From the NCBI RefSeq assembly GCF_000284115.1, contig NC_017080.1:3510001-3542000 (forward strand): DNA of 32,000 bases, in the 5' to 3' direction. The notes under the pieces are model-generated. The model saw nothing but the letters and a program-made list of their open reading frames with translations, was not told the origin of the DNA and did no database searches. Shown in pieces: positions 1,117-27,396 of this stretch. Source of the DNA: Phycisphaera mikurensis NBRC 102666 (GTDB taxonomy: Bacteria > Planctomycetota > Phycisphaerae > Phycisphaerales > Phycisphaeraceae). Position 1 is the stretch's first letter. Every line of letters begins with the position of its first letter. The translations under genes were made by a program, and so were the position numbers.

Positions 1117-1938
1117 GTGGGTGCGGTTGCCGTCGCCTTCGCCGGGAAAGCCAACCGCCCCGCCGCCGAAGCCCTGGCCGCGAGGCTGGGCCTCCCGATC
1201 GCCAAGAAGTTCCGCGATCCGCACCCGCTGCACCTGGCGTACGGGCCCGACGGCCGCCTGGGCCTCCGCGTCGTCGCCGCCGGCCACCCGCTCGCCGGCG
1301 GCCACCCCGTCGCCGCCGACCTGCTCGCGGTCGACACCTCCAGCCCCGCCGGCCGCAAGCTCGCCACGCCCTTCTTCAAGGCCATGGGCGTGCGGCGCGG
1401 CGAGCCGGCGCGCCCCCGGGTCCTCGACGCGACCGCCGGCCTCGGCGAGGACGCCTGGCTGCTCGCCAGCGCCGGCTGCCGCGTGACCGCTCTGGAGCGG
1501 AACCCCGTCGTCCTCGCCCTGCTCCAAGACGCCCTGGCCCGCGCCGCGGACCGCGAGCCCGAAACGGCCGAACGCCTCACGGTCCGCGGCGCCGAGGCCC
1601 TCGACGCGCTTCTGGCCCTGGCCGCCGGCCCCGAGGCGGACCGACCCGACGTCGTTGCGCTGGATCCCATGTTCCCGCTCGGCCGCCGCGCCACCGAACG
1701 CAAGCCGATGCGGGTGCTCCGCATGCTCGAGGAGGCCGCCGCCGACCGGGCTGGCTCCGCCGACGACGAGCCCGCCCTGCTCGCCGCCGCCCGCGCCGCC
1801 GCCCGCCGCCGCGTCGCCGTCAAACGCCCCGGCAAGGCCCCTCCGCTCGCCGGGCAAGAGCCCGACGTCGTGTTCCCCGGCAGAGCCGTCCGCCACGACG
1901 TCTACCTCACGCCCGCGGAGACGCCGCGAGCCGGCTGA
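1117..1938 (+). CDS. rsmJ: 16S rRNA (guanine1516-N2)-methyltransferase RsmJ-like SAM-dependent methyltransferase
   Basis: C-terminal part of track ORF 346..1938. GTG at 1117 lies 2 nt after the upstream stop. Motifs VLDATAGLGEDAWLLASAGCRVTALERNP, LDPMFP and VAVKRP match the RsmJ (DUF548) family. Confidence 0.8.
   Translation: MGAVAVAFAGKANRPAAEALAARLGLPIAKKFRDPHPLHLAYGPDGRLGLRVVAAGHPLAGGHPVAADLLAVDTSSPAGRKLATPFFKAMGVRRGEPARPRVLDATAGLGEDAWLLASAGCRVTALERNPVVLALLQDALARAADREPETAERLTVRGAEALDALLALAAGPEADRPDVVALDPMFPLGRRATERKPMRVLRMLEEAAADRAGSADDEPALLAAARAAARRRVAVKRPGKAPPLAGQEPDVVFPGRAVRHDVYLTPAETPRAG
1544..1589. repeat. 46-bp inverted-repeat element, copy 1 (CCGCGGACCG-N26-CGGTCCGCGG), inside the rsmJ CDS
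   Basis: Both 10-bp arms are exact (1544..1553 and 1580..1589). The arms are read in frame as A-D-R and V-R-G. Confidence 0.9.
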
Positions 1939-5790: not shown

Positions 5791-6813
5791 TCAACGGGTG
5801 CCACCGCCCGCGAGGAGCCCGCTGAGCACCGAGGCCGCGGGCTTGGGCGAGCCGTCGAACCCGTAGACGCCGAAGTGGTAGGCGTGCTCGTCGGCGTGGT
5901 CGCCCTCGATGCTCGCCCGGCCGGGGTCGAGGTCGTCGAGGCCGTACCAGTAGACGCGCGGGCTCGGGGCCGCGGCAGCGGCCTCGAGCGCGGCGGACTG
6001 CGCGGCGAGGGCGCCCGGCGTCCCGGCCCGGCCGGCCGCGGCGTCCCAGGTCGACAGCCCCGTCTCGGTCACCCACACGGCGCGGCCGCCGGCCACCTCC
6101 TCGAAGGCGGCGATCCGGTCGGCCCAGCCGCTCCACCGCCAGGGCTGGTCCCAGCCGTCGGCGGGCAGCTCGCCCGCGGCGGCTCGCTCGCTGCCCCCGG
6201 CGTCGTCGACGAAGTGCTCGCCCCACATGTGCGGGAAGCCGTGCACGCCGACGATGGGGACGTGCTCGAGGTGGCCCCGCTCGCGGAGCAGGGTGATGAA
6301 GGTCGGGTCGGCGGGGGCGAGGCCGCCGAGCACGGCCGGCTTGCCCGCGGAGGCCGCGACCGCGGCGGCCCCGTGGATCATCTCCCCGAAGAGGTGCCAC
6401 TGCGGGTCGGACCCGAGGAAGTCCCAGTAGAAGCGGCCGTTGGGCTCGTTCCAGAGCTCGATCTCGTGGAAGCGGTCGCCGTGCAGGTCGATGATCTGGC
6501 CGATGAAGGCGGCGTAATCGCGGAGGTCGTGCGGCGGGCCGCTGCACGCCCCGTTCCGCGAAATCGACGGCGGCGTGTGCCACACCGAGGGCAGCAGCTC
6601 GAACTCCTGGAGCTCCTCGAACAGGAAGGAAACGAAGGCCGGGCCGTCGGGCCGATGGAAGTCGGCCCACGAGACGCCGGTTCGCAGCCGGGCGACGCCC
6701 AGGCCGCGGAGGCGGTCGCGGGCGGCGAGGACGTGCTCGTGGTCGTTGTGGTGGAACCACTCGCAGACGCCGAGGCGCTGCGTGTAGGACGCGGGGTTGG
6801 GAGGCTGGCTCAT
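5791..6813 (-). CDS. Glycoside hydrolase, TIM-barrel clan GH-A (GH39/GH5-like)
   Basis: MSQPPNP start at 6813. The ELWNEPN acid/base motif and a later VWVTETG nucleophile-type motif are present. Its ATG overlaps the upstream gene's TGA (ATGA at 6813..6810). Confidence 0.6.
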   Translation of the reverse strand: MSQPPNPASYTQRLGVCEWFHHNDHEHVLAARDRLRGLGVARLRTGVSWADFHRPDGPAFVSFLFEELQEFELLPSVWHTPPSISRNGACSGPPHDLRDYAAFIGQIIDLHGDRFHEIELWNEPNGRFYWDFLGSDPQWHLFGEMIHGAAAVAASAGKPAVLGGLAPADPTFITLLRERGHLEHVPIVGVHGFPHMWGEHFVDDAGGSERAAAGELPADGWDQPWRWSGWADRIAAFEEVAGGRAVWVTETGLSTWDAAAGRAGTPGALAAQSAALEAAAAAPSPRVYWYGLDDLDPGRASIEGDHADEHAYHFGVYGFDGSPKPAASVLSGLLAGGGTR

Positions 6814-7961
6814 GGGAGGATCTTCGCGGCCGCGGATCCGGGCGGATGCCGCAGGGGCCGGTTCTGGGAGGGCTCCAGCGCCCGTCCGACGGCGGCGGCG
6901 ACCGGGCCGACGGGGACGGCGTCGACGCAGCTGCGGAGGCCCGCGATCCGGCACACGCCCTCCACCACGCACGCGGGCGGGCCGAGGCGGTCGGGTTCTC
7001 GCAGCGGGCACGGCGTCGTCGATTCCAGGGCCTCGCCCGCGAAGCGGCCGCCCCGCTCCACCCGCGGCATGTAGAGCTTCGCCCGCGTGGGGCCGAACAC
7101 CGCGACCGTTGGCGTCCCGACCGCCGCGGCGAGGTGCAGCAGGCCCGAGTCGTTGGTGAGCAGCGCGGTGCAGCGGGCGAGCACCGCCGCGGCCGTCAGC
7201 AGGTGCGCCGGGCCGAGCGCGGGGAGCGGCTCCGGGAGCCGGCGCTGCACGGCCGCCGCCCGCTCCGCGTCCGGCCCGGCGATCAGGACCGCGTCGGTGC
7301 CCGCCGGCCGGCCGATCAGCACCTCCGCCACGCGCTGCGGCGGCCAGACCTTCAGGTCGCTCCCGCCGTTCACGGCCGCGGCGAGCAGTGGACGGCGGCC
7401 GCGCGGCAGGCCGAGGGCCCCCAGCCACGCCTCCGCCGCCCGGGCGTGCGGCGGCGGCGGCTCGACGCTCGCCACGGCCTCGGGGGGAGCCGACAGCCCC
7501 CACCCCGCCGCCGCCGCGTCGCTGACGAAGGCCGCCGTGCCCGCCCCGCCCACCGCGGCCGCCAGCTCCACCGGCTGGTCCTCCTGCGCGTTCGCGTCGC
7601 CGAAGCCCGCCGCCACCGCCGCGTCGCGCAGCCCCTCGGGCGCGTGCATCAGCCCGACGAAGCGGGTCGCGTCGTCGAGTGCCGCCGCCCAAGCGGCCGA
7701 CTTCTCCCGGGCCGCGTCGTCGCCCCGGTCTCCCCAGTGCCGCAGGCCCAGCTGGAGGTAGGTCCCCACCGCGTCCTCCGGCCGCGCCAGCACCTCCACC
7801 AGGTCGACCGCCGGCCGCGTCGCCAGCCAGAGCACCGGCGTCCGCTGCTCCGCCCGCCAGGCCCGCAACGCCGGCACCGACATCACCACGTCGCCGAACC
7901 CGCAGCGCAGGCACATGACGCGGCGGAAGGTCGAGGGGAGCGGATCGTCGTCGCGGGGCAC
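6810..7961 (-). CDS. Glycosyltransferase family 9 (heptosyltransferase-like)
   Basis: N-terminal CGFGDVVMSVPAL and C-terminal LLTNDSGLLHLAAAVGTPTVAVFGPT are GT9 hallmarks. The start is GTG 7961 or ATG 7916 (uncertain). Confidence 0.75.
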   Translation of the reverse strand: MPRDDDPLPSTFRRVMCLRCGFGDVVMSVPALRAWRAEQRTPVLWLATRPAVDLVEVLARPEDAVGTYLQLGLRHWGDRGDDAAREKSAAWAAALDDATRFVGLMHAPEGLRDAAVAAGFGDANAQEDQPVELAAAVGGAGTAAFVSDAAAAGWGLSAPPEAVASVEPPPPHARAAEAWLGALGLPRGRRPLLAAAVNGGSDLKVWPPQRVAEVLIGRPAGTDAVLIAGPDAERAAAVQRRLPEPLPALGPAHLLTAAAVLARCTALLTNDSGLLHLAAAVGTPTVAVFGPTRAKLYMPRVERGGRFAGEALESTTPCPLREPDRLGPPACVVEGVCRIAGLRSCVDAVPVGPVAAAVGRALEPSQNRPLRHPPGSAAAKILP

Positions 7962-7993: not shown

Positions 7994-8039
7994 CCGCGGA
8001 CCGCCGCGCCGAACGCCCGCGACGCTCCGCGGTCCGCGG
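7994..8039. repeat. 46-bp inverted-repeat element, copy 2
   Basis: Arms are exact at 7994..8003 and 8030..8039. It is intergenic, 106 bp downstream of the thiC stop and 33 bp upstream of the GT9 start. Confidence 0.9.
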
Positions 8040-8144: not shown

Positions 8145-10043
8145 TCAGATGACCGAGTCGGCTTTCGAGAGCCCGTGCGCCTCGCTGGTGTCGAGCTGGA
8201 CCAACCGGTCGCCGTTGGCGAGGGCGGCCGCCTCCTTCGGCGCCACGCTCTTCGCCGCTTCGTCGTCCCCGACGTGGTCGCTGTGGCAGCGCGCCCGGCC
8301 GTCCTCGTCCGCGGGCACCAGCTTGCCCTTGGCCTTCGCCGCGAGCTTGTGGATCTCCGCCGGCGAGAGGTTGCCGCGCTGCTCGAGGATCCGCCGCTGC
8401 TCCTCGTTGAGCGCGGCGCTCTTCACCGTCCGCCCGCGGTCGAAGCCCTCGGCGAGGCCCGAGTCCCACTCGGAGATCTCCTTGCTGATGCGGACGCTGC
8501 ACCAGTCGTGGCCGCACATCGCGCAGAAGTCGGTGTCCACGTCGAGGTCCTCGTCGTGGTACGCCCGGGCCAGGTCCGGGTCGAAGGACAGGTCGAAGTG
8601 TTTCTGCCAGTTGAGGGCCGCCCGGGCCTTGGTCAGCTCGTCGTCGTTGTCCCGGGTGCCGGGGATCCCCAGCGCCACGTCGGCGGCGTGAGCCGCGATC
8701 TTGTACGCCACGCAGCCCTGCTTCACGTCGTCCTTCTTGGGCAGGCCCAGGTGCTCCTTGGGCGTGACGTAGCACAGCATCGACGCCCCGTGGTAGCCGG
8801 CCGAGGTCGCCCCGATGCAGCTGGTGATGTGGTCGTAGCCGGGGAACATGTCGGTCACCAGGGGCCCGAGCACGTAGAAGGGCGCCCCGTGGCAGAGGTG
8901 CCGCTGGGCCTTCATGTTGAACTCGATCTGGTCCAGCGGCACGTGGCCGGGGCCCTCGACCATCACCTGCACGCCGCAGCGCCAGGCACGCTCGGTCAGC
9001 TTGCCCAGCTCGACCAGCTCGGCCAGCTGCAGCTCGTCGGTGGCGTCGGCGAGGCCGCCGGGGCGGCAGCCGTCGCCGATGCTGAAGGTCACGTCGTGCT
9101 CGCGGAGGACCCCGCAGATCTTCTCCCACGACGTGTTCATCGGGTTCTCTCTCTGGTGGACCAGCATCCACTTCGCCAGCAGCGAGCCGCCGCGGGAGAC
9201 CAGGCCGATCAGCCGCTTCTTCACCAGCGGCAGGTGCGACTTGAGGATCCCGGCGTGGACCGTCATGTAGTCCACGCCCTGCTCGGCCTGGGCGCGGATG
9301 CCGTCGAGGATGATCTCCTCGTCGAGGTCTTCGATCTTCCGCCCGATGATCATCGAGTAGATCGGCACGGTGCCGATGGGCACCGTCGAGTGCGTCGTCA
9401 TCGCGACGCGGGTGGCGTCCAGGTCGCCGCCGGTGGAGAGGTCCATCACCGTGTCGGCGCCCCACTTCTCCGCCCAGCGGAGCTTGTCGACCTCCTCGTC
9501 GATCGAGGAGGAGACCGGGCTGGCGCCCATGTTCGCGTTGACCTTCGTCTTGCTGGCCCGGCCGATGGCCATCGGGTCCAGCGAGGTCTTCAGGTGGTTC
9601 TTGTTCGCCGGGATCACCATGCGGCCGGCGGCGACCTCGTCGCGGACCTGGGCCGCGCTGAGGTGCGGCTCCCGCTCGGCGACGCGCTCCATCTGCTTCG
9701 TGATCGTGCCGAGGCGCGCGTGCTCGAGCTGGGTCGACGCCTCGAAGCCGTCGGGGGCTCGCCACGAAGCGGCGTCGGCCCGGTTCGCCTCGTCGGTGCA
9801 CGTCCAGCCGGCGGGCATGAAGTCCCAGGCGGTCTTCTGCGGCAGCGGCGGCATCCCCGGCGTGTCGGGCGAGGAGAAGGTCGCCGCGCCCTCGGGGCCG
9901 GGGGCGATGGCCGGCCGGTTGGCGAAGGAGCCCGGCGTGGTGACGCCGGGCGTGTTCCCCGGGTTGCCGCCGACGGCGGGGAGCGTGTACGGGGCCGCGA
10001 CCAAGGCGGCGCGGGAGGTCGTGGGCGTGTCGTGGGGCTTCAT
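8145..10043 (-). CDS. thiC: Phosphomethylpyrimidine synthase ThiC
   Basis: 632-aa ORF with typical ThiC blocks (GTVPIYSMIIG, VDYMTVHAG, GPGHVPLDQI, GPLVTD) and the C-terminal CAMCGHDWCS Fe-S motif. A TPP riboswitch lies immediately upstream. Confidence 0.95.
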   Translation of the reverse strand: MKPHDTPTTSRAALVAAPYTLPAVGGNPGNTPGVTTPGSFANRPAIAPGPEGAATFSSPDTPGMPPLPQKTAWDFMPAGWTCTDEANRADAASWRAPDGFEASTQLEHARLGTITKQMERVAEREPHLSAAQVRDEVAAGRMVIPANKNHLKTSLDPMAIGRASKTKVNANMGASPVSSSIDEEVDKLRWAEKWGADTVMDLSTGGDLDATRVAMTTHSTVPIGTVPIYSMIIGRKIEDLDEEIILDGIRAQAEQGVDYMTVHAGILKSHLPLVKKRLIGLVSRGGSLLAKWMLVHQRENPMNTSWEKICGVLREHDVTFSIGDGCRPGGLADATDELQLAELVELGKLTERAWRCGVQVMVEGPGHVPLDQIEFNMKAQRHLCHGAPFYVLGPLVTDMFPGYDHITSCIGATSAGYHGASMLCYVTPKEHLGLPKKDDVKQGCVAYKIAAHAADVALGIPGTRDNDDELTKARAALNWQKHFDLSFDPDLARAYHDEDLDVDTDFCAMCGHDWCSVRISKEISEWDSGLAEGFDRGRTVKSAALNEEQRRILEQRGNLSPAEIHKLAAKAKGKLVPADEDGRARCHSDHVGDDEAAKSVAPKEAAALANGDRLVQLDTSEAHGLSKADSVI

Positions 10044-10111
10044 CGCGTGGGTCCTTGGGGGAGGCGCGGAGGAAGCGGGTGCGGGACGCGGCGGGTGGGC
10101 CGGTCCGGTTG

Positions 10112-10192
10112 TCGCCTTCCCTCCGCCGGTGTGATCCGGATCAGGTTCCGCGGGTGCTTCTCAGCCGGAGAGGTCCGACGCCCCGAGGCAGA
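10112..10192 (-). promoter_or_regulatory. TPP (THI-box) riboswitch in the thiC leader
   Basis: The minus strand reads CUCGGGGCGUCGGACCUCUCCGGCUGAGAAGCACCCGCGGAACCUGAUCCGGAUCACACCGGCGGAGGGAAGG. It contains the conserved CUGAGA and ACCUGAUC..GGAU...C.GGCG.AGGGA cores of the TPP aptamer, about 70 nt upstream of the thiC ATG. Confidence 0.9.
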
Positions 10193-10235
10193 AGAAAGCA
10201 TAGAGGCGGGCCCGGGCGGGTCGTACGCTGAACGC

Positions 10236-12384: not shown

Positions 12385-12430
12385 CCGCGGACCGCGGCCG
12401 ATCACGCTCGACCGAGCGGACGGTCCGCGG
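12385..12430. repeat. 46-bp inverted-repeat element, copy 3
   Basis: Arms are exact at 12385..12394 and 12421..12430. The left arm extends to the full 13-bp palindrome CCGCGGACCGCGG. It is intergenic, 93 bp downstream of the pyrE stop. Confidence 0.9.
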
Positions 12431-13053: not shown

Positions 13054-13094
13054 GGGGGGAACGTAAGGCGGGGGCGAGGGAGGGAAGAAGCGAA

Positions 13095-13150
13095 GAAGTG
13101 AGGAAGTGAGGAAGTGAGGAAGTGGGGAAGTGGGGAAGTGGGGAAGTGGG
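13095..13150. repeat. 8-bp tandem microsatellite, GAAGTGAG x3 followed by GAAGTGGG x4
   Basis: Seven head-to-tail 8-mers read directly. The unit length is not a multiple of 3. The array sits in the 232-bp divergent region between pyrE (-) and the SDR gene (+). Confidence 0.95.
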
Positions 13151-13285
13151 GACGCGAGGGGGTGGGGGCGGCGGCTGTGCCGGCCGGTTGGGGTGGGATT
13201 TGGTTTGGGCTGGAGTTCGCTCTTGTCTTTGGGTTGCGCTTGCCTGCTGAGCGGCGGGGGCGCTGGCGGGGCGTAGCCTCGCCGC

Positions 13286-14474: not shown

Positions 14475-16358
14475 TCAGCCCAGCGACCGCAGCGCCGCCT
14501 TGCAGGCCTGCCCCAGCGGGACCGCCTCGCCGCGGGGGCCTAGGGAGCCGTCCCGCGCCACCAGCTCCACCGTCGGCGTGTCGGCGGAGAGGCCCTTGTC
14601 GCCGACGACGATCCGCAGCGGGAAGCCGATCAGGTCGGCGTCCTTGAACTTGGGCCCCGGCCGCCCGTCGCGGTCGTCGATGAGCACGTCGTGCCCGGCC
14701 TCCTCCAGGCTGGCCGCCAGGTTCCGGCAGACGTCGGCGACCTGGCTGTCGGGCTCCCACGCGATCGGCGTGATGACGACCGCGTAGGGCGCGAGCGCGA
14801 CGGGCCAGATGATGCCGTCGGCGTCGTGGCCGCTCTTCTTCTCCGCGGTCGAGCGGCCGGTGCTCTCGATGGCCGAGGCGAGCACGCGGTTGACGCCGAT
14901 GCCGTAGCAGCCCATGAGCGGTGTGACGGCCGCGCCGTCGGCCCCGGCCACGGCGATGCCCAGGGCCCGCGTGTACTTGGCCCCCAGCTTGAACACCTGG
15001 CCGACCTCGATGCCGCGCGAGGCCACGAGCGTGGGCCCGCCGTCGCCGGCGACCGCCCCGGGGGCGGGGTCGCCCGCGAGCGCGTTGCGGAGGTCCAGGA
15101 CGGCGAAGCGGTCGGCGGGGAGGTGGTCGGTGAGGTCGCGGCCCCAGTGGAAGTGCTTGGCGTGGGCGTCGGGCCGGTTGGCGCCGACGACCCAGAAGCC
15201 GCCGTGCGCCGCGTCGAAGTCGACGGCGACGGCGGTGTCGCCGCGGCCGGCCGCGGCGTGCGGGCCCACCGAGCCCAGCGGGAAGCCCGCGGCTTGGGCC
15301 TCCTCCTCGGGGGCGAGGCGCGCGAGCGCACCCGGGCCGTGGAAGCGCTCGGCGGCGGCCTTGAGCTTCTCGTCGTTGAGCTGGTGGTCGCCGCGGACCG
15401 CGACCAAAAGGAAGCGCAAACCGCCGCGGTCCGCGGAATCGGGCGGCTCGGCGTCCTCGGGCGGCTCCATCATGCAGACGAGCGTCTTGAGCGTGTTCTT
15501 CGCGGCGAGCTTCGAGCCCAGCTCCTTCTTGAAGAAGGCGGTGACCTCCTCGATGGAGCCCACGCCGGGCGTCTCCACCTCCTCCAGGCCGCCCGTCGGC
15601 TCCTGGGTGAGGTCGCTGGGCCGCTCGCCGGTCGCGGCCTTCTCCTCGTTGGCGGCGTACGCCCCGTCGGTGGAGCGGAAGACGGTGTCCTCGCCGGTCG
15701 GCGTGAGCACGGTGAACTGGTGGCTGGCCCGGCCGCCCATCTCGCCGGTCTCGGCCTCGACGACGGCGTAGTCGAGCCCGCACCGCTCGAAGATCCGCTC
15801 GTAGGCGGCGTACTGCGCCCGGTAGGTCTCGTCGAGCCCGCCCTCGCCGTCGGCGGTGGCGTGGAAGCTGTAGCCGTCCTTCATCAGGAACTCCCGCGAC
15901 CGCAGCACCCCGAAGCGCGGCCGGAACTCGTCGCGGAACTTGGTCTGGATCTGGTAGACGTTGCGGGGCAGGTCCTTGTAGGAGGACAGGGTCGCGCCCA
16001 CGAGGTCGGCCACGGCCTCCTCGGCGGTCGGCGCGAGCGCCGCCTCGCGGCCGTGGCGGTCGTTGACCACGAAGAGGTTCGCGCCGTACGCCGCGCGGCG
16101 GCCGGTGCGCTCCCACAGCGAGATCGGCTGCAGGCACGGCAGGCTGACTTCGACGGCTCCGGCGGCGTGCTGCTCCTCGCGGATGATCCGCTCCACCTTC
16201 CGCAGGCTCCGCAGCCCCAGCGGCAGGTAGCCGTACGAGCCCGAGCCGAGCCGGCGGACCAGCCCGGCCCGCAGCATCAGCCGGTGCGAGGGCACCTCGG
16301 CGTCGGCGGGGGCTTCGCGGAGGGTGGGGGCGAGGGTTCTCGACCAGAAGTCAGGCAT
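14475..16358 (-). CDS. proS: Proline--tRNA ligase (bacterial type with INS editing domain)
   Basis: Start at MPDFWSRTLAPTLREAP (ATG 16358). Class II motifs (FRDE.RPRFG..R.REF.MKD.YSF; GCYGIG..R) and the VRGDHQLNDEKL block are present. The upstream part of track ORF 14475..17804 is a GC artefact. Confidence 0.95.
   Translation of the reverse strand: MPDFWSRTLAPTLREAPADAEVPSHRLMLRAGLVRRLGSGSYGYLPLGLRSLRKVERIIREEQHAAGAVEVSLPCLQPISLWERTGRRAAYGANLFVVNDRHGREAALAPTAEEAVADLVGATLSSYKDLPRNVYQIQTKFRDEFRPRFGVLRSREFLMKDGYSFHATADGEGGLDETYRAQYAAYERIFERCGLDYAVVEAETGEMGGRASHQFTVLTPTGEDTVFRSTDGAYAANEEKAATGERPSDLTQEPTGGLEEVETPGVGSIEEVTAFFKKELGSKLAAKNTLKTLVCMMEPPEDAEPPDSADRGGLRFLLVAVRGDHQLNDEKLKAAAERFHGPGALARLAPEEEAQAAGFPLGSVGPHAAAGRGDTAVAVDFDAAHGGFWVVGANRPDAHAKHFHWGRDLTDHLPADRFAVLDLRNALAGDPAPGAVAGDGGPTLVASRGIEVGQVFKLGAKYTRALGIAVAGADGAAVTPLMGCYGIGVNRVLASAIESTGRSTAEKKSGHDADGIIWPVALAPYAVVITPIAWEPDSQVADVCRNLAASLEEAGHDVLIDDRDGRPGPKFKDADLIGFPLRIVVGDKGLSADTPTVELVARDGSLGPRGEAVPLGQACKAALRSLG
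15391..15436. repeat. 46-bp inverted-repeat element, copy 4, inside the proS CDS
   Basis: Arms are exact at 15391..15400 and 15427..15436. On the coding (minus) strand the arms read S-A-D-R-G and A-V-R-G-D. Confidence 0.9.
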
Positions 16359-16760: not shown

Positions 16761-17423
16761 ATGGACGGGTGGCCCCCGAGACACCGACGCAAGGATCCGC
16801 CCGTGGGCATCGAACGCCGCTCCCTCACCATCATCCTCTCCTTCGCCTTCGGGCTGAGCACGCTCTACGGCGTCCTGCGGGTGCTCGAGCCGGGTCAGCG
16901 GGCGCCGCTGGGCGGCAGCACGCTGCTGAGCCTGGATCCCGAGGCGGTGCACTCCCCCCTCGAGCAGCTCTTCAGCACCGAGGCGGAGGCGAGGCCGTGG
17001 CAGGTGATCGTCGTTCACGACAGCGGCTCGGCGGCCGGCTCCTACGACGAGCTGGACCGGCGGCACGCCAGCCTCGGCCGCGAGGGCTGCGGCTACCACT
17101 TCGTGGTCAACAACGGCAACGGCGAAGCCGACGGCCGGATCCAGGTGGGCTACCGGTGGCGGATCCAGAAGGAGGGCGACTTCCTCGATGGCGAGGCGGG
17201 GCGTGACTTCAGCCGCCGCTTCGAGACGATCGGCATCTGCCTCATCGGCAACGCGGACGACGCGCCACCCACCGCCGCCCAGCAGCGGGAGCTGGCTTGG
17301 CTGATCGGGAAGCTCCAGGCGCGCTTCGACATCCCCACCGAGCGGGTCTTCCTCCAGGCCGGTTCGCCGGACGTGGCGGGCCACTTCCCGCACGCGGCGT
17401 TCCGCGAGCGGCTCCAGGGCTGA
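16761..17423 (+). CDS. N-acetylmuramoyl-L-alanine amidase domain (Amidase_2/PGRP-like) protein with N-terminal TM segment
   Basis: VIVVHDSGS, GYHFVVNNG and IGICLIGN blocks, plus a hydrophobic segment LTIILSFAFGLSTLYGVL. An alternative GTG start at 16803 has AAGGA 6 nt upstream. Confidence 0.7.
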   Translation: MDGWPPRHRRKDPPVGIERRSLTIILSFAFGLSTLYGVLRVLEPGQRAPLGGSTLLSLDPEAVHSPLEQLFSTEAEARPWQVIVVHDSGSAAGSYDELDRRHASLGREGCGYHFVVNNGNGEADGRIQVGYRWRIQKEGDFLDGEAGRDFSRRFETIGICLIGNADDAPPTAAQQRELAWLIGKLQARFDIPTERVFLQAGSPDVAGHFPHAAFRERLQG

Positions 17424-17472: not shown

Positions 17473-17517
17473 CGCGGACCGGGGTCCCGCGCGTTCCTGG
17501 TCCGGCACGGTCCGCGG
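17472..17517. repeat. 46-bp inverted-repeat element, copy 5
   Basis: Arms are exact at 17472..17481 and 17508..17517. It lies 49 bp downstream of the amidase stop. Confidence 0.9.
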
Positions 17518-19952: not shown

Positions 19953-20962
19953 GCCGGGCCACGCCTCCTCCCGCCGCGGCGAGCCTCCCGCCCTTCGTCT
20001 ACGACCCGGCGTACGTGACGCCGCTGCCGCCGGGGCACCGCTTCCCGATGCCGAAGTTCGGCCACCTGCACGACCACCTCGCGGCGGTCGGCCTGCTCGG
20101 CCCGGGCAACCTCCACCGGCCCGAGCCCGCGGCGGTCGAGACGCTCGGGCGGGCGCACGACCCGGCGTACGCCGATGCCTTCCTCTCCGGTCGGCTCGAC
20201 CGCGACGCGCTCCGCACGCTCGGCCTGCCGTGGTCCGCGGGCCTCGCGGCCCGGACGGTCACCGCCCTTGGCGGCACCGTGCTCGCCGCCCGCCTCGCGC
20301 TGCGGCACGGCCTCGCCGCCAATCTGGCCGGCGGCACGCACCACGCCCACCGCGGGCACGGGGCCGGCTTCTGCATCTTCAACGACCTCGCCGTCGCCGC
20401 GCTCACGCTGCTCGAGGAAGACGCCGTGGACCAGGTCCTCATCGTCGACCTCGACGTGCACCAGGGGGACGGCACCGCCCGGATCCTGCGCCACGAGCCG
20501 CGGGCGTTCACGCTCTCGGTGCACTGCGCCTCGAACTACCCCGCCCGCAAAGCCCGCAGCGACCTCGACGTCCCGCTGCCGGACGGGCTGGGCGACGCCG
20601 GGTACCTCCGCGTGCTCGGGCACGGCGACGAAGCCTCCGGCTTCCGCGGCCTCGGCTGGCTGCTGGAGCAGGTCGAGCCCGATCTCGTGCTCTACGACGC
20701 CGGGGTCGACGTGCACGCCGACGACAAGCTCGGCCGGCTCGCGATGACCGACGCCGGCCTCCGCGAGCGCGACCGCGCCGTGCTCGAAGCCTGCCGCGGG
20801 CAGGGCGTGCCGGTCGCGTGCGTCATCGGCGGCGGCTACGGCGACGACCGGGTGGCGCTGGCGCAGCGGCACGGCATCCTGCACGAAGAGGTCGCCCGGC
20901 GGTGGCGGGCGGAGCGGGCGCGGGACGCGTCGCGGACCGCGGCGGCCCGGAGCCTCCCGTGA
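19949..20962 (+). CDS. Histone deacetylase-family protein (HDAC/AcuC-like); start codon uncertain
   Basis: FVYDPAYVTPLPPGHRFPMPKF, GGTHHAHRGHGAGFCIFND, DLDVHQGDG and GGGY are class-defining motifs. There is no in-frame ATG/GTG upstream of the conserved N-terminus. The only candidate is CTG at 19949, which overlaps the upstream TGA. Confidence 0.8.
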   Translation: MSRATPPPAAASLPPFVYDPAYVTPLPPGHRFPMPKFGHLHDHLAAVGLLGPGNLHRPEPAAVETLGRAHDPAYADAFLSGRLDRDALRTLGLPWSAGLAARTVTALGGTVLAARLALRHGLAANLAGGTHHAHRGHGAGFCIFNDLAVAALTLLEEDAVDQVLIVDLDVHQGDGTARILRHEPRAFTLSVHCASNYPARKARSDLDVPLPDGLGDAGYLRVLGHGDEASGFRGLGWLLEQVEPDLVLYDAGVDVHADDKLGRLAMTDAGLRERDRAVLEACRGQGVPVACVIGGGYGDDRVALAQRHGILHEEVARRWRAERARDASRTAAARSLP

Positions 20963-20975
20963 CCGCGGTCCGCGG
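20930..20975. repeat. 46-bp inverted-repeat element, copy 6 (left arm TCGCGGACCG, one mismatch)
   Basis: Arms at 20930..20939 and 20966..20975. It straddles the HDAC stop codon (20960..20962) and ends 17 bp before the sufE ATG. Confidence 0.8.
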
Positions 20976-24002: not shown

Positions 24003-24048
24003 TCCGCGGACCGACGCCCGCTCCAGCCGAAAAACCCGGCGGTCCGCG
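24003..24048. repeat. 46-bp inverted-repeat element, copy 7
   Basis: Arms are exact at 24003..24012 and 24039..24048. It starts 13 bp after the neuB stop. Confidence 0.9.
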
Positions 24049-24127: not shown

Positions 24128-24352
24128 ATGTCCGACTCCGACCCCACCGCCACCTCCTCCGACGACGCCAACCCCCAGCCGGCTTCCGGCTCGGCGAACC
24201 AGTCGCGCGTCACGACCCTCCGCGAGGAGATCCGCTCGATCGACGACAAGCTCAACCTGCCGACGATGGACCTGCAAACGAAGATGGAGCTCAAGGGCCG
24301 CCGGTCGATGCTCGAGCGGCAGGTGAACGACATCGAGAAGAAGAACAAGTAG
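24128..24352 (+). CDS. Small hypothetical coiled-coil protein (74 aa)
   Basis: MSDSDPTATSSDD... followed by a heptad-like charged helix (LREEIRSIDDKLN...LERQVNDIEKKNK). Composition is protein-like. No clear RBS and no recognised family. Confidence 0.5.
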   Translation: MSDSDPTATSSDDANPQPASGSANQSRVTTLREEIRSIDDKLNLPTMDLQTKMELKGRRSMLERQVNDIEKKNK

Positions 24353-24371
24353 GAGACGCGCGGGGCAGGTG

Positions 24372-24840
24372 GCTCATCCACCCCGTGGATGTCGCGGCGG
24401 ATGCGAGCGGCGGAGGTTGTCGGCCCGGCACGGGGCGCATGGTGCACGGGCTGTTGCTGCTCCGTGCAGCTTCTACATCGACGGAGTCGATGAGCCACCC
24501 GTGGAGGGGCGGACCGAAGCGGCGGAGGTTGTCGGCCCGGTGCGGGGCGCATGGCGCACGGGCTGTTTCTGGCCCGTTCAGCTTCTACATCGACGGAGTC
24601 GATGAGCCACCCGTGGAGGGGCGGACCGAAGCGGCGGAGGTTGTCGGCCCGGTGCGGGGCGCATGGCGCACGGGCTGTTTCTGGCCCGTTCAGCTTCTAC
24701 ATCGACGGAGTCGATGAGCCACCCGTGGAGGGGCGGACCGAAGCGGCGGAGGTTGTCGGCCCGGTGCGGGGCGCATGGCGCATGGGCTGGTTCTGCTCCG
24801 TGCAGCTTCTACATCGACGGAGTCGATGAGCCACCCGTGG
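24372..24840. repeat. Tandem array of a 112-bp unit, about 4.1 copies
   Basis: Units lie at about 24372..24491 (diverged), 24492..24603, 24604..24715 (identical to the previous unit), 24716..24827 (5 substitutions) and a partial unit at 24828..24840. Because 112 is not a multiple of 3, each copy is in a different frame. Confidence 0.95.
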
Positions 24841-24861: not shown

Positions 24862-26340
24862 TCACCGCATCGCCGTCGCCGCTCTCTCGTCGACGCCGTC
24901 GCGGCCGATCAGGATCCGCTCGACCCCCGCGATCCGCGCGTAGTCGTCGAGCATCTCCGGCGTCACGGCCAGGCTGAAAGCCGTGTGGTGCGCTCCGCCG
25001 GCGAGGATCCAGGCGCGGGCGGCGGCGGGCAGGTCGGGGTGCGGGGTCCAGAGCGCCCGCGCGACCGGCAGCCTCGGCAGAGGCTCGGCCGGCGGCTCGC
25101 AGGTGACGGTGTTGACGACGAGGCGGAAGCGGTCGCCCATGTCCACCATCGATGCGTTCGTGGCCTCGCCGGCGGCGGCATCGAAGACCAGCCGCACCGG
25201 GTCGTCCTTGCCGCCGATGCCCAGCGGGTGCGCCTCGCAGCGGGGCCGGCCGGCGGCGATGGACGGGCAGATCTCGAGCATGTGGGCGCCGAGCACCTTG
25301 CCGCCGCCCGCCCCGCTGAAGTCGTAGGTGTAGTCCTCCATGAAGGACGTGCCGCCGGGGAGCCCGTGCCCCATCACCTTCACGGCGCGGACCAGCGCGG
25401 CGTGCTTCCAGTCGCCCTCGGCGCCGAAGCCGTAGCCGTCGGCCATCAGCCGCTGCGACGCGATCCCGGGCAGCTGCCGGAGGCCGTGCAGGTTCTCGAA
25501 GGTGTTGGTGTAGCCGCGGAAGCCACCGTCCTCGAGGAAGCCGCGGATCCCGATCTCGATCGCCGCGGCGTCGCGCAGGCTCTGCGCCCGCTCGCCGCCG
25601 GGACGCAGCGCAGCGTCCACGTCGTACGCGTCGAGGTAAGCCGCGACGAGGCCGTCGACGGCGGCGTCGCCCGCCGCGTCCACCCGCTCGGCCAGCTCGC
25701 CGAGCCCGTAACCATGCACGGCGTAGCCCAGCTTCAGCTGGGCCTCGACCTTGTCGCCCTCGGTCACGGAGACCTCGCGCATGTTGTCGCCGAAGCGGGC
25801 GAACCTCGCCCCCTGCTGGTCGGCCCAGGCCGAGGCGGCCCGGCACCAGGCGCCCACCGAAGCCCGCACCCGGTCGTCCTGCCACGGCCCCACCACCACC
25901 TTCCGCCGCAGCCCGATCCGCGTGCACAGGTGGCCGAACTCCCGCCCGCCGTGCGCCGACTGGTGCAGGTTCATGAAGTCCATGTCGATCGTCGGCCAGG
26001 GCAGGGCCCGGTGGTGCTGCGTGTGCAGGTGCAGCAGCGGCTTGCGGAGCCGGCTCAGCCCGGCGATCCACATCTTCGCCGGGCTGAAGGTGTGCATCCA
26101 CGCGATCAGGCCGATGCAGGCCGCGTCGGCGTCGGCCGCGGCCAGCGTCGCGGTCACCTCCTCGGCGGTGGTCAGCGTCGGCTTGTGCACGACGCGGATC
26201 GGCACCGACTCGGCGGCATCCAGGCCGGCCGCGACCTCGCGGGCGTCGGCCGCCACCTCCGCCAGCGTCTCCTCCCCGTAGAGGTGCTGGCTGCCGGTGA
26301 GGAACCAGATCTCGGAAGCCGTGGTGTCAATCGTGCTCAT
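24862..26340 (-). CDS. araA: L-arabinose isomerase
   Basis: 492 aa. The N-terminal [29 protein letters not shown], and later FGAEGDWK and FMEDYTY blocks are typical AraA. Confidence 0.9.
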
Positions 26341-26350
26341 GCGGATGTGC

Positions 26351-27073
26351 TCAGGAGGGGGAGGGGGAAGCGGGCTGCCCGTAGTACGCGCCGGCCCCGT
26401 GCTTGCGGTCGTGGTGCTTGTCGAGCACGTGGCGTTCCAGCGGCGGGGCGTCCGGCCGCAGCCGCAGCGTGGCGAGCGCGACCGCCGCGACCGCCTCCAG
26501 CGCGACGGCGTTCTCGACGGACGCCGCCGGCGTGGCGCCCCAGGTGAAGGGCGCGTGGCCGGCGAGCAGCACGGCCGGCGTCGCGACCGGGTCGAGGTCC
26601 GCGAACCGCTCCACGATCGCCTCGCCGGTCGCCGCCTCGTACCCGTCGTCGACCTCGTCGGCGGTCAGCGGCCGGGCGAGCGGAACCGGCCCGTGGAAGT
26701 GGTCGGCGTGGGTCGTGCCCAGGCACGGGACCGGCGTGCGGGCCTGCGCGAAGGCGGTGGCCGAAGCGGAGTGCGTGTGGGTGATGCCGGCGATCCGGCC
26801 GGGGCAGCGCCCGGCGAAGAAGCGGTACAGCCGGGCGTGGGTGGGCGTGTCGGAGGACGGCCGCAGGTCGCCCTCGACCACCCCGCCGTCGAGGTCGACG
26901 ACCACCATCGACGCCGGCGTGAGCTTGCCGTAGGGCACGCCGCTGGGCTTGATCACCAGGAGGCTCGCGTCCGCGTCGAAGCCGCTCACGTTCCCCCACG
27001 TCAGCGTGACCAGCCCCCCCGCCGGGAGCTCGCGGTTGGCCTCGCAGACGGCTTCTCTCAGGTCTTGGAGCAT
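26351..27073 (-). CDS. araD: L-ribulose-5-phosphate 4-epimerase (class II aldolase fold)
   Basis: Start at MLQDLREAV (ATG 27073). GNVSG, VIKPSGV, SSDTPTH and HTHS motifs are present. It lies 10 bp upstream of araA on the same strand. Confidence 0.85.
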
Positions 27074-27197
27074 CGGAATCAGGCGGGTGAGCGTGCCGGA
27101 ACCCCGAAGATAAAGGCGGACGGTTTGGACCACGCGAGCGTCGGCGGAGCCACCCCGAGCGAGCTTGGGGCACCCCGGACCGGCGGCAAAGGAAAGA

Positions 27198-27219
27198 GGC
27201 CCGCCGTTGCCGGCGGGCC
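27198..27219 (-). terminator. Intrinsic terminator-like hairpin downstream of tRNA-Asn
   Basis: GGCCCGCCG-TTGC-CGGCGGGCC (9-bp stem, 4-nt loop) is followed on the minus strand by TCTTTCCTTT. Confidence 0.6.
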
Positions 27220-27230
27220 TCGTCCTCATG

Positions 27231-27303
27231 CTCCCCGAGCTGGGCTCGAACCAGCGACCTAGCGATTAACAGTCGCGCGCTCTACCAACTGAGCTATCGG
27301 GGA
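27231..27303 (-). tRNA. tRNA-Asn (anticodon GTT)
   Basis: The minus strand reads TCCCCGATAGCTCAGTTGGTAGAGCGCGCGACTGTTAATCGCTAGGTCGCTGGTTCGAGCCCAGCTCGGGGAG. It has a 7-bp acceptor stem, D arm GCTC/GAGC, anticodon loop CTGTTAA and T loop TTCGAGC. CCA is not encoded. Confidence 0.95.
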
Positions 27304-27350: not shown

Positions 27351-27396
27351 CCGCGGACGGCGGACCCGGAAGCGGCCCGGGGGCCGCGGTCCGCGG
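27351..27396. repeat. 46-bp inverted-repeat element, copy 8 (left arm CCGCGGACGG, one mismatch)
   Basis: Arms at 27351..27360 and 27387..27396. It ends 4 bp from the GH30 stop and lies 48 bp upstream of the tRNA-Asn 5' end. Confidence 0.8.

What the first reader, a model, noticed from the sequence alone, without database searches (positions are those of the whole stretch)
24372..24840. Tandem array of a non-coding, hairpin-dense 112-bp unit between a small ORF and araA
**Array.** There are about 4.1 head-to-tail copies of GAGCCACCCGTGGAGGGGCGGACCGAAGCGGCGGAGGTTGTCGGCCCGGTGCGGGGCGCATGGCGCACGGGCTGTTTCTGGCCCGTTCAGCTTCTACATCGACGGAGTCGAT. Copies 2 and 3 are identical. Copy 4 has 5 substitutions. 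Copy 1 is diverged at its 5' third.

**Not coding, not CRISPR.** The unit length is 112, which is 3n+1, so successive copies fall in different frames and one frame carries TGA. That makes it not a protein repeat. There are no unique spacers, so it is not a CRISPR array.

**Structure.** Each unit contains a perfect 7-bp/3-nt hairpin (CATCGAC-GGA-GTCGATG), a 6-bp hairpin (ACGGGC-N8-GCCCGT) and an overlapping alternative stem (CCGGTGCG...CGCACGGG).

**Context.** The array fills the convergent gap after the 74-aa coiled-coil ORF and before the araA stop. A 46-bp element lies about 80 bp upstream of the small ORF. Identical neighbouring copies imply recent expansion or homogenisation.

**Possible roles.** A multi-module structured RNA in a 3' UTR, or a separate ncRNA. 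An iteron-like protein-binding array. Or a VNTR.
Basis: seen in the sequence. Interest (0 to 1): 0.72.

Follow-up and report, generated by a model that had tools for sequence, protein, structure and literature searches.

The report
Tandemly amplified palindromic repeat element (REPIN-like)
The 112-bp array in Phycisphaera mikurensis is real, but it is best read as one copy of a small palindromic repeat element (the REP/REPIN/MITE kind) that was locally duplicated about three more times; a related bacterium carries similar four-unit arrays, so this is a new family of a familiar kind of bacterial repeat, not a new kind of RNA gene.

Summary
There are 3.9-4.1 head-to-tail copies of a 112-bp unit at 24368-24840. 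Copies 2 and 3 are identical, and the sequence is non-coding. It lies between a 74-aa ORF and araA in Phycisphaera mikurensis NBRC 102666.

- **Inverted left edge.** The left edge (24368-24391) is an inverted copy of the unit's hairpin plus GAGCCACC. Copy 1 (24364-24503) is therefore a complete ~135-nt element with inverted hairpin ends, and it folds into one long hairpin. Copies 2-4 are truncated duplicates. They probably arose through the microhomology CCACCC(C)GTGGA.
- **Not an orphan.** A metagenomic Phycisphaera relative carries two four-unit tandem arrays of the full element, and a solo copy downstream of the orthologue of the same small ORF. End hairpins are kept by compensatory changes. 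Ends are 100% conserved within arrays, while interiors are 64-77% identical.
- **Weak case for a structured RNA.** Both strands fold about equally well. The 112-nt unit folds no better than shuffled sequence (z -0.25). Rfam has no match.

The closest known thing is a tandemly repeated REPIN/BIME cluster. It has no GTAG or CGTC tag, and no transposase partner could be tested. Any role as an mRNA 3'-end hairpin is inferred only. I rate it a new member of a known kind, of modest interest.

The parts
24364..24503 (+). Unit 1: a complete ~135-nt palindromic element (inverted ends GGCAGGTGGCTC ... GAGCCACC)
   Evidence: Covariance model R1, built from the family, scores it 108 bits over its full length. 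It folds as one long hairpin at -81.6 kcal/mol, z -3.3 on + and -5.3 on -. It aligns end to end with the relative's units.
24368..24391 (+). Left arm: tag GGTGGCT plus hairpin CATCCAC-CCC-GTGGATG (stem 24375-24381 / 24385-24391)
   Evidence: It is an inverted match to the right arm (I11 and I25). The left end is 100% identical to the left arm of array B in the relative L023 (A1 columns 3-28, 26 columns; 25-nt exact BLAST match).
24476..24499 (+). Right arm of unit 1: hairpin CATCGAC-GGA-GTCGATG plus AGCCACC
   Evidence: Five of its 7 stem pairs covary across the family.
24500..24835 (+). Units 2-4 (24500-24611, 24612-24723, 24724-24835): truncated 112-bp duplicates that lack the left arm. Each ends in the right-arm hairpin (24588-24611, 24700-24723, 24812-24835).
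   Evidence: R1 gives only partial matches at 26-42 bits. Folding z is -0.25 and -1.4.
24836..24840 (+). Terminal CGTGG: the last partial repeat. Together with 24830-24835 it forms the microhomology CCACCCGTGG, shared with 24378-24388 in the left hairpin.
   Evidence: Gapped alignment of unit 1 against unit 2, and junction comparison.
24128..24352 (+). 74-aa conserved small ORF. Its stop codon lies 11 nt before the element's inverted end at 24364 (15 nt before GGTGGCTC at 24368).
   Evidence: Almost every third codon position is G or C (sequence). It has four homologues, always downstream of neuB. There is only a weak FlxA-like Pfam hit, below the cut-off.
24862..26340 (-). araA, convergent with the small ORF. 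Its stop codon lies 21 nt beyond the array.
   Evidence: Pfam AraA_N, AraA_central and Arabinose_Iso_C.
24369..24605 (+). Annotated hypothetical protein PSMK_29860 (BAM05145.1). It lies wholly inside the array and is very probably a spurious gene call.
   Evidence: It has no Pfam family. The only protein found among 1.84 billion representatives was P0006 (78 aa), the same ORF.
24005..24048 (.). It belongs to a separate, abundant family and is not part of the array.
   Evidence: Eight copies in the window against 0.24 expected. It is conserved upstream of the small ORF in relatives.

Best explanation
The array is a local tandem amplification of one copy of a small, non-coding palindromic repeat element. 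That element belongs to the general class of REP doublets (REPINs), BIMEs and MITEs.

**The element (shown).** The ancestral element is about 135 nt. It has:
- inverted ends (C)CGGCAGGTGGCTC ... GAGCCACCTGCCG(G);
- a 7-bp hairpin just inside each end, with loop CCC(C) on the left and GGGG/GGA on the right;
- a conserved left subterminal block, GATG.AG..GC.G.C..GAGC.G..GAGC;
- a variable interior.

The whole element can fold into one long imperfect hairpin on either strand.

**How the array formed (inferred from sequence).** In P. mikurensis one such element sat just after the stop codon of a conserved 74-aa ORF. A direct microhomology, CCACCC(C)GTGGA, lies inside the left hairpin and again at the right end plus flank. 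It allowed a slipped or unequal exchange that duplicated a ~112-116-bp segment lacking the left arm. Further unequal crossing-over or gene conversion gave 4.1 copies with identical inner copies.

**Spread (inferred).** The family probably spreads, or once spread, as single-stranded or hairpin DNA handled by an unidentified transposase. I did not test this.

**Function (by analogy only).** By analogy with REP/BIME elements, read-through transcripts from the small ORF or from araA would carry stable hairpins at their 3' ends. These could block 3'-5' exonucleases or help end convergent transcription. Hairpins starting 7-11 nt after a stop codon could also affect termination of translation.
For: **1. 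The left edge is an inverted right arm.** Unit 1 is a full element.

**2. The family exists elsewhere.** Relative L023 (ENA ERZ25039505 contig_9026, 545 kb) has two arrays of full elements: 774-1388 (period 156, 3.9 copies) and 9252-9885 (period 161, 3.9 copies). It also has a solo copy at 6447-6581, downstream of the orthologous small ORF (46.8 bits).

**3. The ends are conserved and the interior is not.**
- Within arrays, ends are 100% identical and interiors are 64-77% identical.
- The P. mikurensis left end is 100% identical to L023 array B over A1 columns 3-28 (26 columns), although the neighbouring protein is only 63% identical.

**4. Hairpins are kept by compensatory change.** Two of 7 stem pairs in the left hairpin covary, and 5 of 7 in the right. 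The closing stem GGTGGCT/AGCCACC does not vary in the 13 array units; the degenerate solo copy has one change. In array A the two arms are no longer complementary to each other, yet each still forms a perfect hairpin. So the hairpins, not simple terminal inverted repeats, are what is maintained.

**5. The strands are symmetric.**
- Consensus folds give -37.1 kcal/mol on + and -41.0 on -.
- Single elements fold as long hairpins on both strands, z -3.3 to -6.5.

**6. The arrays repeat the element together with pieces of both flanks.** Each linker equals the start of the right flank plus the end of the left flank. This is the pattern described for tandemly repeated REPIN clusters of up to four REPINs and over 700 bp in Pseudomonas fluorescens (PMC3116915).

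**7. Occupancy is patchy.** There is none at the orthologous site in the closest relative L021, nor in L026. There is none in ~105 kb from six other Phycisphaerae contigs.

**8. Position is extragenic and close to stop codons.** The element starts 11 nt after the stop codon in P. mikurensis and 7 nt after it in L023 array A.
Against: - No transposase or RAYT partner was found or could be searched for.
- The conserved tag is GGTGGCT. It is neither the GTAG nor the CGTC that defines the two large REP superfamilies (PMC3733652).
- No target-site duplication is visible.
- Copy number looks low in P. mikurensis. There is one locus in the 32-kb window. An exact-pattern scan of 185,579 species genomes returned no P. 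mikurensis hit and only seven chance hits. The source genome may have been masked in that collection.
- Only two source genomes are known to carry the family, so mobility is inferred from patchiness and has not been observed.
- Three independent arrays each have about 3.9 units. Two haplotypes that are about 95% identical keep the same four units. This could hint at a selected function that simple amplification does not explain.
- In the well-supported helices, 4 of the 5 one-sided transition changes give G.U on the + strand and C.A on the - strand. This is a weak hint of RNA-level selection.
Confidence: 0.66

Rival explanations
1. The units are modules of a structured non-coding RNA. This could be a 3'-UTR-derived or independent transcript on the + strand, with the closing stem and two flanking hairpins forming a conserved scaffold. 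Tandem copies would act as a multi-site RNA, for example a protein or RNA sponge.
For: - Hairpin stems covary and the closing stem is invariant in the 13 array units.
- Four of the five one-sided transition changes in the robust helices give G.U on the + strand.
- The left subterminal block is conserved asymmetrically, which gives the element a polarity.
- All three arrays have about 3.9 units, and copy number is stable between two haplotypes.
- In the two arrays that lie between convergent genes, the + strand of the array is the sense strand of the gene that ends 7-11 nt upstream; in the third it is the sense strand of the gene that starts about 95 nt downstream.
Against: - There is no Rfam match, even at E<=10.
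- The - strand folds as well or better.
- The P. mikurensis units 2-4 lack the left arm and fold no better than shuffles. Three of the four 'modules' would therefore be defective.
- The interior is only 43-47% identical between arrays.
- The element is absent from the closest relative at the orthologous site.
- No promoter or terminator consensus was found in the region.
Confidence: 0.13
2. It is a protein-binding DNA array. The repeated GGTGGCT-hairpin motifs would be sites for a DNA-binding protein (a nucleoid-associated protein, gyrase, or an IHF-like protein as in BIMEs, or a site-specific recombinase), and the array would act on local topology between convergent genes.
For: - The ends are strictly conserved while the interior drifts.
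- The strands are symmetric.
- The location between convergent genes is where positive supercoils accumulate (established knowledge; the BIME-gyrase link is recalled from memory and not tested here).
Against: No protein partner is known. Compensatory changes inside the stems argue that pairing, rather than a fixed duplex sequence, is what is maintained. Nothing here tests binding.
Confidence: 0.1
3. It is a neutral, locus-specific VNTR or minisatellite that arose from ordinary intergenic DNA and has no relatives elsewhere.
For: - The inner copies are identical.
- A draft assembly of the same species has one copy fewer, 3.1, and a short-read assembly breaks inside the repeat.
- Exact-pattern scans of the genome, metagenome, phage and plasmid collections found only chance hits.
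Against: - Homologous full-length elements and arrays exist in a relative, at E values from 1e-7 down to 1e-27 with the family model.
- The one-copy difference in the draft is what collapse of two identical 112-bp units would produce, so it is not evidence of polymorphism.
- In the relative, copy number is the same in two haplotypes.
Confidence: 0.04

Closest known systems
Tandemly repeated REPIN clusters (REP doublets forming hairpins) of Pseudomonas fluorescens SBW25 (Bertels & Rainey 2011, PMC3116915)
   Same: - The unit is two inverted short palindromes that together fold into one long hairpin.
- Placement is extragenic.
- Ordered clusters are tandem repeats of nearly identical units that include flanking sequence. 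The largest described has four REPINs and is over 700 bp. The relative's arrays have four units in about 615-635 bp.
   Different: - There is no GTAG tag.
- The spacer between the two palindromes is longer (~85 nt) and carries its own conserved block.
- No RAYT gene is known nearby.
- Copy number appears low.
- In P. mikurensis the amplified unit is a truncated element lacking one arm.
- The host is a planctomycete (Phycisphaerae).
BIMEs (bacterial interspersed mosaic elements) of Escherichia coli, especially tandem BIME-2 clusters
   Same: Palindromic units alternate in orientation, are separated by defined linkers and are repeated in tandem. They lie after stop codons and between convergent genes. 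(These BIME properties are from my own knowledge and from the introductions of PMC3116915 and PMC3733652.)
   Different: The sequences are unrelated. BIME linkers are short. BIME functions (gyrase, IHF and Pol I binding, mRNA stabilisation) are experimentally shown for E. coli and untested here.
MITEs (miniature inverted-repeat transposable elements)
   Same: The size is 100-160 nt. There are perfect terminal inverted repeats of 11-16 bp. There is no coding capacity. Presence among relatives is patchy.
   Different: No target-site duplication is visible, and no autonomous partner is known. The IS630-type element in L024 has unrelated inverted repeats. The two arms can diverge from each other while each keeps its own hairpin, which is more like REP than like transposase-binding inverted repeats.
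GTAG- and CGTC-tagged REP superfamilies (Di Nocera et al. 2013, PMC3733652)
   Same: Each is a short stem-loop (7-bp stem, 3-4-nt loop) with an unpaired conserved tag at one end. They are mostly arranged as inverted dimers, sometimes in clusters, and stems vary by compensatory change.
   Different: The tag here is GGTGGCT, seven nucleotides that pair with the tag of the partner arm. It fits neither GTAG nor CGTC.

Membership tests
REP / REPIN (RAYT-mobilised) | Short imperfect palindromes arranged as an inverted doublet that folds into one long hairpin | tested here: met
   Full elements fold as single long hairpins, z -3.3 to -6.5.
REP / REPIN (RAYT-mobilised) | Conserved unpaired GTAG (or CGTC) tetranucleotide at the 5' end of each palindrome | tested here: not met
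   The flank is GGTGGCT in every copy. The definition comes from PMC3733652.
REP / REPIN (RAYT-mobilised) | Tens to hundreds of copies dispersed in extragenic space of one genome | tested here: inconclusive
   There are three loci within 12 kb of L023 but one locus in the 32-kb window. There are none in ~105 kb of other relatives. Whole genomes could not be scanned with the model. The exact-pattern genome scan gave no P. mikurensis hit, but the source may be masked.
REP / REPIN (RAYT-mobilised) | A Y1 (HuH) transposase gene (RAYT) flanked by the repeats | not testable with these tools
   There is no Y1_Tnp domain in the gene tables of any fetched locus.
REP / REPIN (RAYT-mobilised) | Ordered clusters formed by tandem duplication of the element plus its flanks | tested here: met
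   for the relative; for P. mikurensis; description in PMC3116915.
MITE | Terminal inverted repeats | tested here: met
   GGCAGGTGGCTC / GAGCCACCTGCC, 11-16 bp perfect.
MITE | Target-site duplication flanking the element | tested here: not met
   No direct repeat flanks the P. mikurensis array, either L023 array or the solo copy.
MITE | Autonomous element with the same ends in the same genome | not testable with these tools
   The only transposase seen, IS630/DDE_3 in L024, has unrelated inverted repeats.
VNTR / minisatellite | Head-to-tail copies of high identity | tested here: met
VNTR / minisatellite | Copy number varies among isolates | tested here: inconclusive
   There are 4.1 copies in the window and 3.1 in the draft GCA_014207395.1, but that difference is what assembly collapse of two identical units would produce. 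Array A in L023 and in L025 both have 3.9 units.
Curated structured RNA family (Rfam 15) | Match to a covariance model at or near its gathering score | tested here: not met
   The best hits are 10-22 bits to unrelated microRNA or snoRNA models.
CRISPR array | Short repeats separated by unique spacers, with cas genes nearby | tested here: not met
   The units are contiguous and homologous throughout. No cas domains appear in the gene tables.
IS200/IS605-derived palindrome-associated elements | Subterminal hairpins at both ends in the same orientation on one strand, with no terminal inverted repeats | tested here: not met
   Tags and loops of the two arms are reverse complements of each other, so the arms are inverted.

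The most novel reading that the evidence does not exclude
The ~135-nt element would be a functional RNA or DNA module that Phycisphaerae keep in sets of about four tandem units. Candidate roles are a multi-hairpin 3'-end structure that sets the stability or termination of convergent transcripts, or a sponge for a hairpin-binding protein. Its repeat-like spread would then be secondary. The identical unit count (3.9) in three independent arrays, the stable count in two haplotypes, and the 100% conserved ends across genomes whose neighbouring protein is 63% identical would be signs of selection, not chance.
Probability: 0.12. Interest if true: 0.6.

Novelty: new member of a known kind. Interest (0 to 1): 0.3.

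Why it matters
Small palindromic repeat families (REP, REPIN, BIME) are well studied in Proteobacteria and barely described in Planctomycetota. This result has four uses:
- **A usable family definition.** It gives a consensus, a covariance model and three arrays plus a solo copy, which can be scanned across Phycisphaerae genomes.
- **A possible route to a new mobilising enzyme.** The end tag is neither GTAG nor CGTC, so the family could point to a different enzyme.
- **An annotation correction.** PSMK_29860 lies inside the array and is very probably not a gene.
- **An assembly warning.** Such arrays break or collapse short-read assemblies at this locus.

It does not open a long-standing question.

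Tried and rejected
- **Rfam.** I scanned the window and both arrays of the relative, at gathering and at permissive thresholds, and found nothing relevant.
- **Genome scan.** An exact-pattern scan of 185,579 species genomes with the hairpin+tag gave seven single hits with no similarity beyond the pattern.
- **Metagenome scan.** A 20-mer from the unit gave ten chance hits.
- **Viral scan.** One chance hit, inside a coding region.
- **blastn against plasmids and phages.** No match.
- **Six-frame chimeric protein query** (meant to catch spurious ORFs called in related arrays).
- **HMMER search with the array ORF against 1.84 billion proteins.** It found only the ORF itself.
- **Unit as a remnant of the TPR gene downstream in the relative.** Rejected: tblastn found nothing. 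The DNA similarity there is the solo element, which overlaps the annotated start of that gene.
- **Integration at tRNA-Asn.** Rejected as an explanation for the array: there is no second copy of the tRNA 3' end.
- **Hammerhead-like core** (CAGAUGAG in array B). Rejected: the position of the invariant U is an A, and the motif is absent from the other arrays.
- **tRNA-like reading of the 7-bp closing stem plus adjacent hairpin.** Rejected: the loops are only 3-4 nt, there is no CCA, and ARAGORN finds nothing there.
- **Weak model hits** at window 17151-17273 (inside a coding region) and L033 16297-16415 (a different element). Neither is a family member.
- **L028 GGTGGCTC cluster.** It looks like a tmRNA gene (sequence read; not checked with ARAGORN).

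Full report
**Observation**

The window is 73% G+C. It comes from the Phycisphaera mikurensis NBRC 102666 chromosome. The small ORF and ProS are named as P. mikurensis proteins on a 3,803,225-bp contig. An ORF inside the array is BAM05145.1 / PSMK_29860.

Tandem Repeats Finder reports one outstanding array: 24406-24840, period 112, 3.9 copies, 96% matches, score 786. In register, units 2 and 3 are identical, unit 4 has 5 substitutions, and unit 1 differs at 31 positions, nearly all in its first 40 nt. The unit is 3n+1 long and carries a TGA, so all six frames are interrupted. The array fills the gap between the 74-aa ORF (24128-24352, +) and araA (24862-26340, -).

The left edge, 24368-24391 (GGTGGCTCATCCACCCCGTGGATG), is an inverted copy of the unit's right end, CATCGACGGAGTCGATGAGCCACC. 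Twenty-one of 24 positions match, and the three differences include a compensated pair inside the stem. Unit 1 (24364-24503) is thus a complete element with inverted, hairpin-bearing ends. It folds into one long imperfect hairpin at -81.6 kcal/mol, z -3.3 on the + strand and -5.3 on the - strand.

Units 2-4 lack the left arm. As single 112-nt sequences they fold no better than dinucleotide shuffles, z -0.25 and -1.4.

A gapped alignment of unit 1 with unit 2 shows where the repeated segment starts and ends. It starts inside the left hairpin at CCACCCCGTGGA (24378-24389). It ends at the same motif, CCACCCGTGGA, formed by the right end plus flank (24494-24504). This direct microhomology is a plausible substrate for the first duplication. 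The identical inner copies point to later unequal exchange or conversion.

**The element is not an orphan**

Exact-pattern scans gave only chance matches. This covers the genome collection, metagenomes, viral contigs and blastn against plasmids and phages.

The link came through synteny. The small ORF has four homologues in ENA metagenome contigs, always downstream of neuB. A control alignment against those contigs showed much stronger matches elsewhere in one of them. L023 (ERZ25039505 contig_9026, 545 kb) carries:
- a tandem array at 774-1388, period 156, 3.9 copies;
- a tandem array at 9252-9885, period 161, 3.9 copies.

Each unit there is a full ~135-nt element, GGCAGGTGGCTC-hairpin ... 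hairpin-GAGCCACCTGCC, followed by a ~25-nt linker. The linker is made of the start of the right flank joined to the end of the left flank. The arrays therefore grew by tandem duplication of element plus flanks.

Thirteen units align end to end with P. mikurensis unit 1. A covariance model built from them scores all of them at 108-156 bits. It also detects a degenerate solo copy at L023 6447-6581 and L024 6451-6586, at 46.8 bits. That copy lies 190 nt downstream of the orthologue of the same small ORF.

The same model finds nothing at the orthologous site in the closest relative L021 or in L026. L021 comes from the contig whose ProS is 89% identical to that of P. mikurensis. The model also finds nothing convincing in ~105 kb from six other Phycisphaerae contigs.

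**Anatomy and conservation**

Across the family, the 7-bp closing stem GGTGGCT/AGCCACC does not vary in the array units. The degenerate solo copy has one change. The left hairpin has 2 covarying pairs and the right hairpin has 5. In array A the two arms are no longer complementary to each other (CATCGTC... against CGCTCAC...), yet each is a perfect hairpin. So hairpin formation is what is kept, not mere inverted-repeat identity.

Ends are 100% identical within arrays, while interiors are 64-77% identical. Between arrays the interiors are 43-47% identical. The P. mikurensis left end is 100% identical to that of L023 array B over 26 alignment columns, although the neighbouring protein is 63% identical.

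There is no consistent strand preference:
- Consensus fold energies are -37.1 kcal/mol (+) and -41.0 (-).
- The more stable strand differs between arrays.
- In the robust helices, 4 of the 5 one-sided transition changes give G.U on the + strand. This is a weak hint only.

No Rfam family matches any of the arrays. No sigma-70 promoter or intrinsic-terminator consensus is present around the array.

**Interpretation**

Several features place the element among REP/REPIN/BIME/MITE-type repeats:
- inverted palindromic arms forming a long hairpin;
- extragenic placement close to stop codons (11 nt in P. mikurensis, 7 nt in L023 array A);
- conserved ends with a drifting interior;
- patchy occupancy among relatives;
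- ordered tandem clusters that include flank sequence.

The best precedent is the tandemly repeated REPIN clusters of Pseudomonas fluorescens SBW25. [quoted passage not shown]

Membership in the RAYT-mobilised REP families is not established. The tag is GGTGGCT, not GTAG or CGTC (PMC3733652). No Y1 transposase could be looked for genome-wide. Copy number seems low in P. mikurensis. No target-site duplication is seen, which argues against a classical MITE. The only transposase in the fetched loci, of IS630 type, has unrelated ends.

I therefore file it as a new family of a known kind. Mobility and any mRNA-3'-end function are inferred by analogy.

**Copy-number variation**

A draft of the same species (GCA_014207395.1) has 3.1 copies, lacking one of the two identical units. 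A Logan short-read assembly breaks in the hairpin. Both are expected assembly effects of identical 112-bp units, so neither is evidence of polymorphism.

In the relative, two haplotypes that are 94.7% identical over 6.3 kb both keep four units in array A. The array is 97.7% identical between them, similar to its neighbours at 96.5-100%. The arrays are therefore not hypervariable on that scale.

**Residual doubts**

Three independent arrays each have about 3.9 units. The ends are very strongly conserved between diverged genomes. The wobble pairs show a small + strand bias. Together these keep a functional RNA or protein-binding reading alive, at a combined confidence of roughly 0.2-0.25. Transcript mapping and a genome-wide model scan would settle it.

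Noticed in passing
window 1545-1588, 7995-8038, 12386-12429, 15392-15435, 17473-17516, 20931-20974, 24005-24048, 27352-27395: A second, more abundant palindromic family, CGCGGAC-N30-GTCCGCG. It is always exactly 44 nt with a variable interior. There are eight copies in 32 kb against 0.24 expected. It is also present in most Phycisphaerae relatives fetched and is conserved about 80 nt upstream of the small ORF in P. mikurensis, L021 and L023. The fixed length with a variable centre suggests a protein-binding or REP-like site.
   Followed up: partly
window 24862-27303 compared with L021 6206-6520: In the closest relative, tRNA-Asn(GTT) lies about 240 nt after the small ORF. In P. mikurensis, araA and araD sit between the array and the same tRNA-Asn (27230-27303, -). 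The arabinose genes were therefore gained in one lineage or lost in the other, right next to the array. No second copy of the tRNA 3' end was found.
   Followed up: partly
window 24369-24605 (+): The annotated hypothetical protein PSMK_29860 (BAM05145.1, 78 aa) lies entirely inside the repeat array. It has no Pfam family, and the only hit among 1.84 billion representative proteins was the same ORF. It is very probably a spurious gene call.
   Followed up: yes
L023 6447-6581 / gene call 6468-7871: The annotated start and first ~38 codons of a 467-aa TPR protein in the relative lie inside the solo palindromic element, with the ATG in the hairpin. Either the start is mis-called or the element supplies the N-terminus.
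   Followed up: no
L021 6254-6373 and L026 2251-2415: Two blocks downstream of the small ORF are conserved between two relatives: 79% over 53 nt and 90% over 41 nt (for example GGCCACAACGCTG.GCGTTGGAAGCC). They are absent from P. mikurensis. This may be a conserved 3'-UTR or small RNA element.
   Followed up: no
L033 16297-16460: A different 119-nt element with the same architecture: an outer stem and two inverted 9-bp hairpins, CCCGGCAAC/GTTGCCGGG. It is followed by tandem copies of the 15-nt unit GCCGGGCCACTGGCG and lies between recA and ffh in the closest relative.
   Followed up: no
window 10101-10195 (-) and 13074-13167: A TPP riboswitch at 66 bits, and an 8-nt tandem repeat, GAGGAAGT, with 9.6 copies.
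   Followed up: no
L007 4580-5075 (Methanocorpusculum MAG): This was a chance pattern hit, but the region is itself a hairpin-rich intergenic repeat. It has a 164-nt unit in 2 copies and a 56-nt unit in 2.7 copies, made of many short stem-loops each followed by TTAGC-like motifs. It is unrelated in sequence to the Phycisphaera element.
   Followed up: no
L023 5960-5985: A run of about 25 C residues lies just upstream of the small ORF in the relative. It is either a homopolymer tract prone to slippage or an assembly artefact.
   Followed up: no
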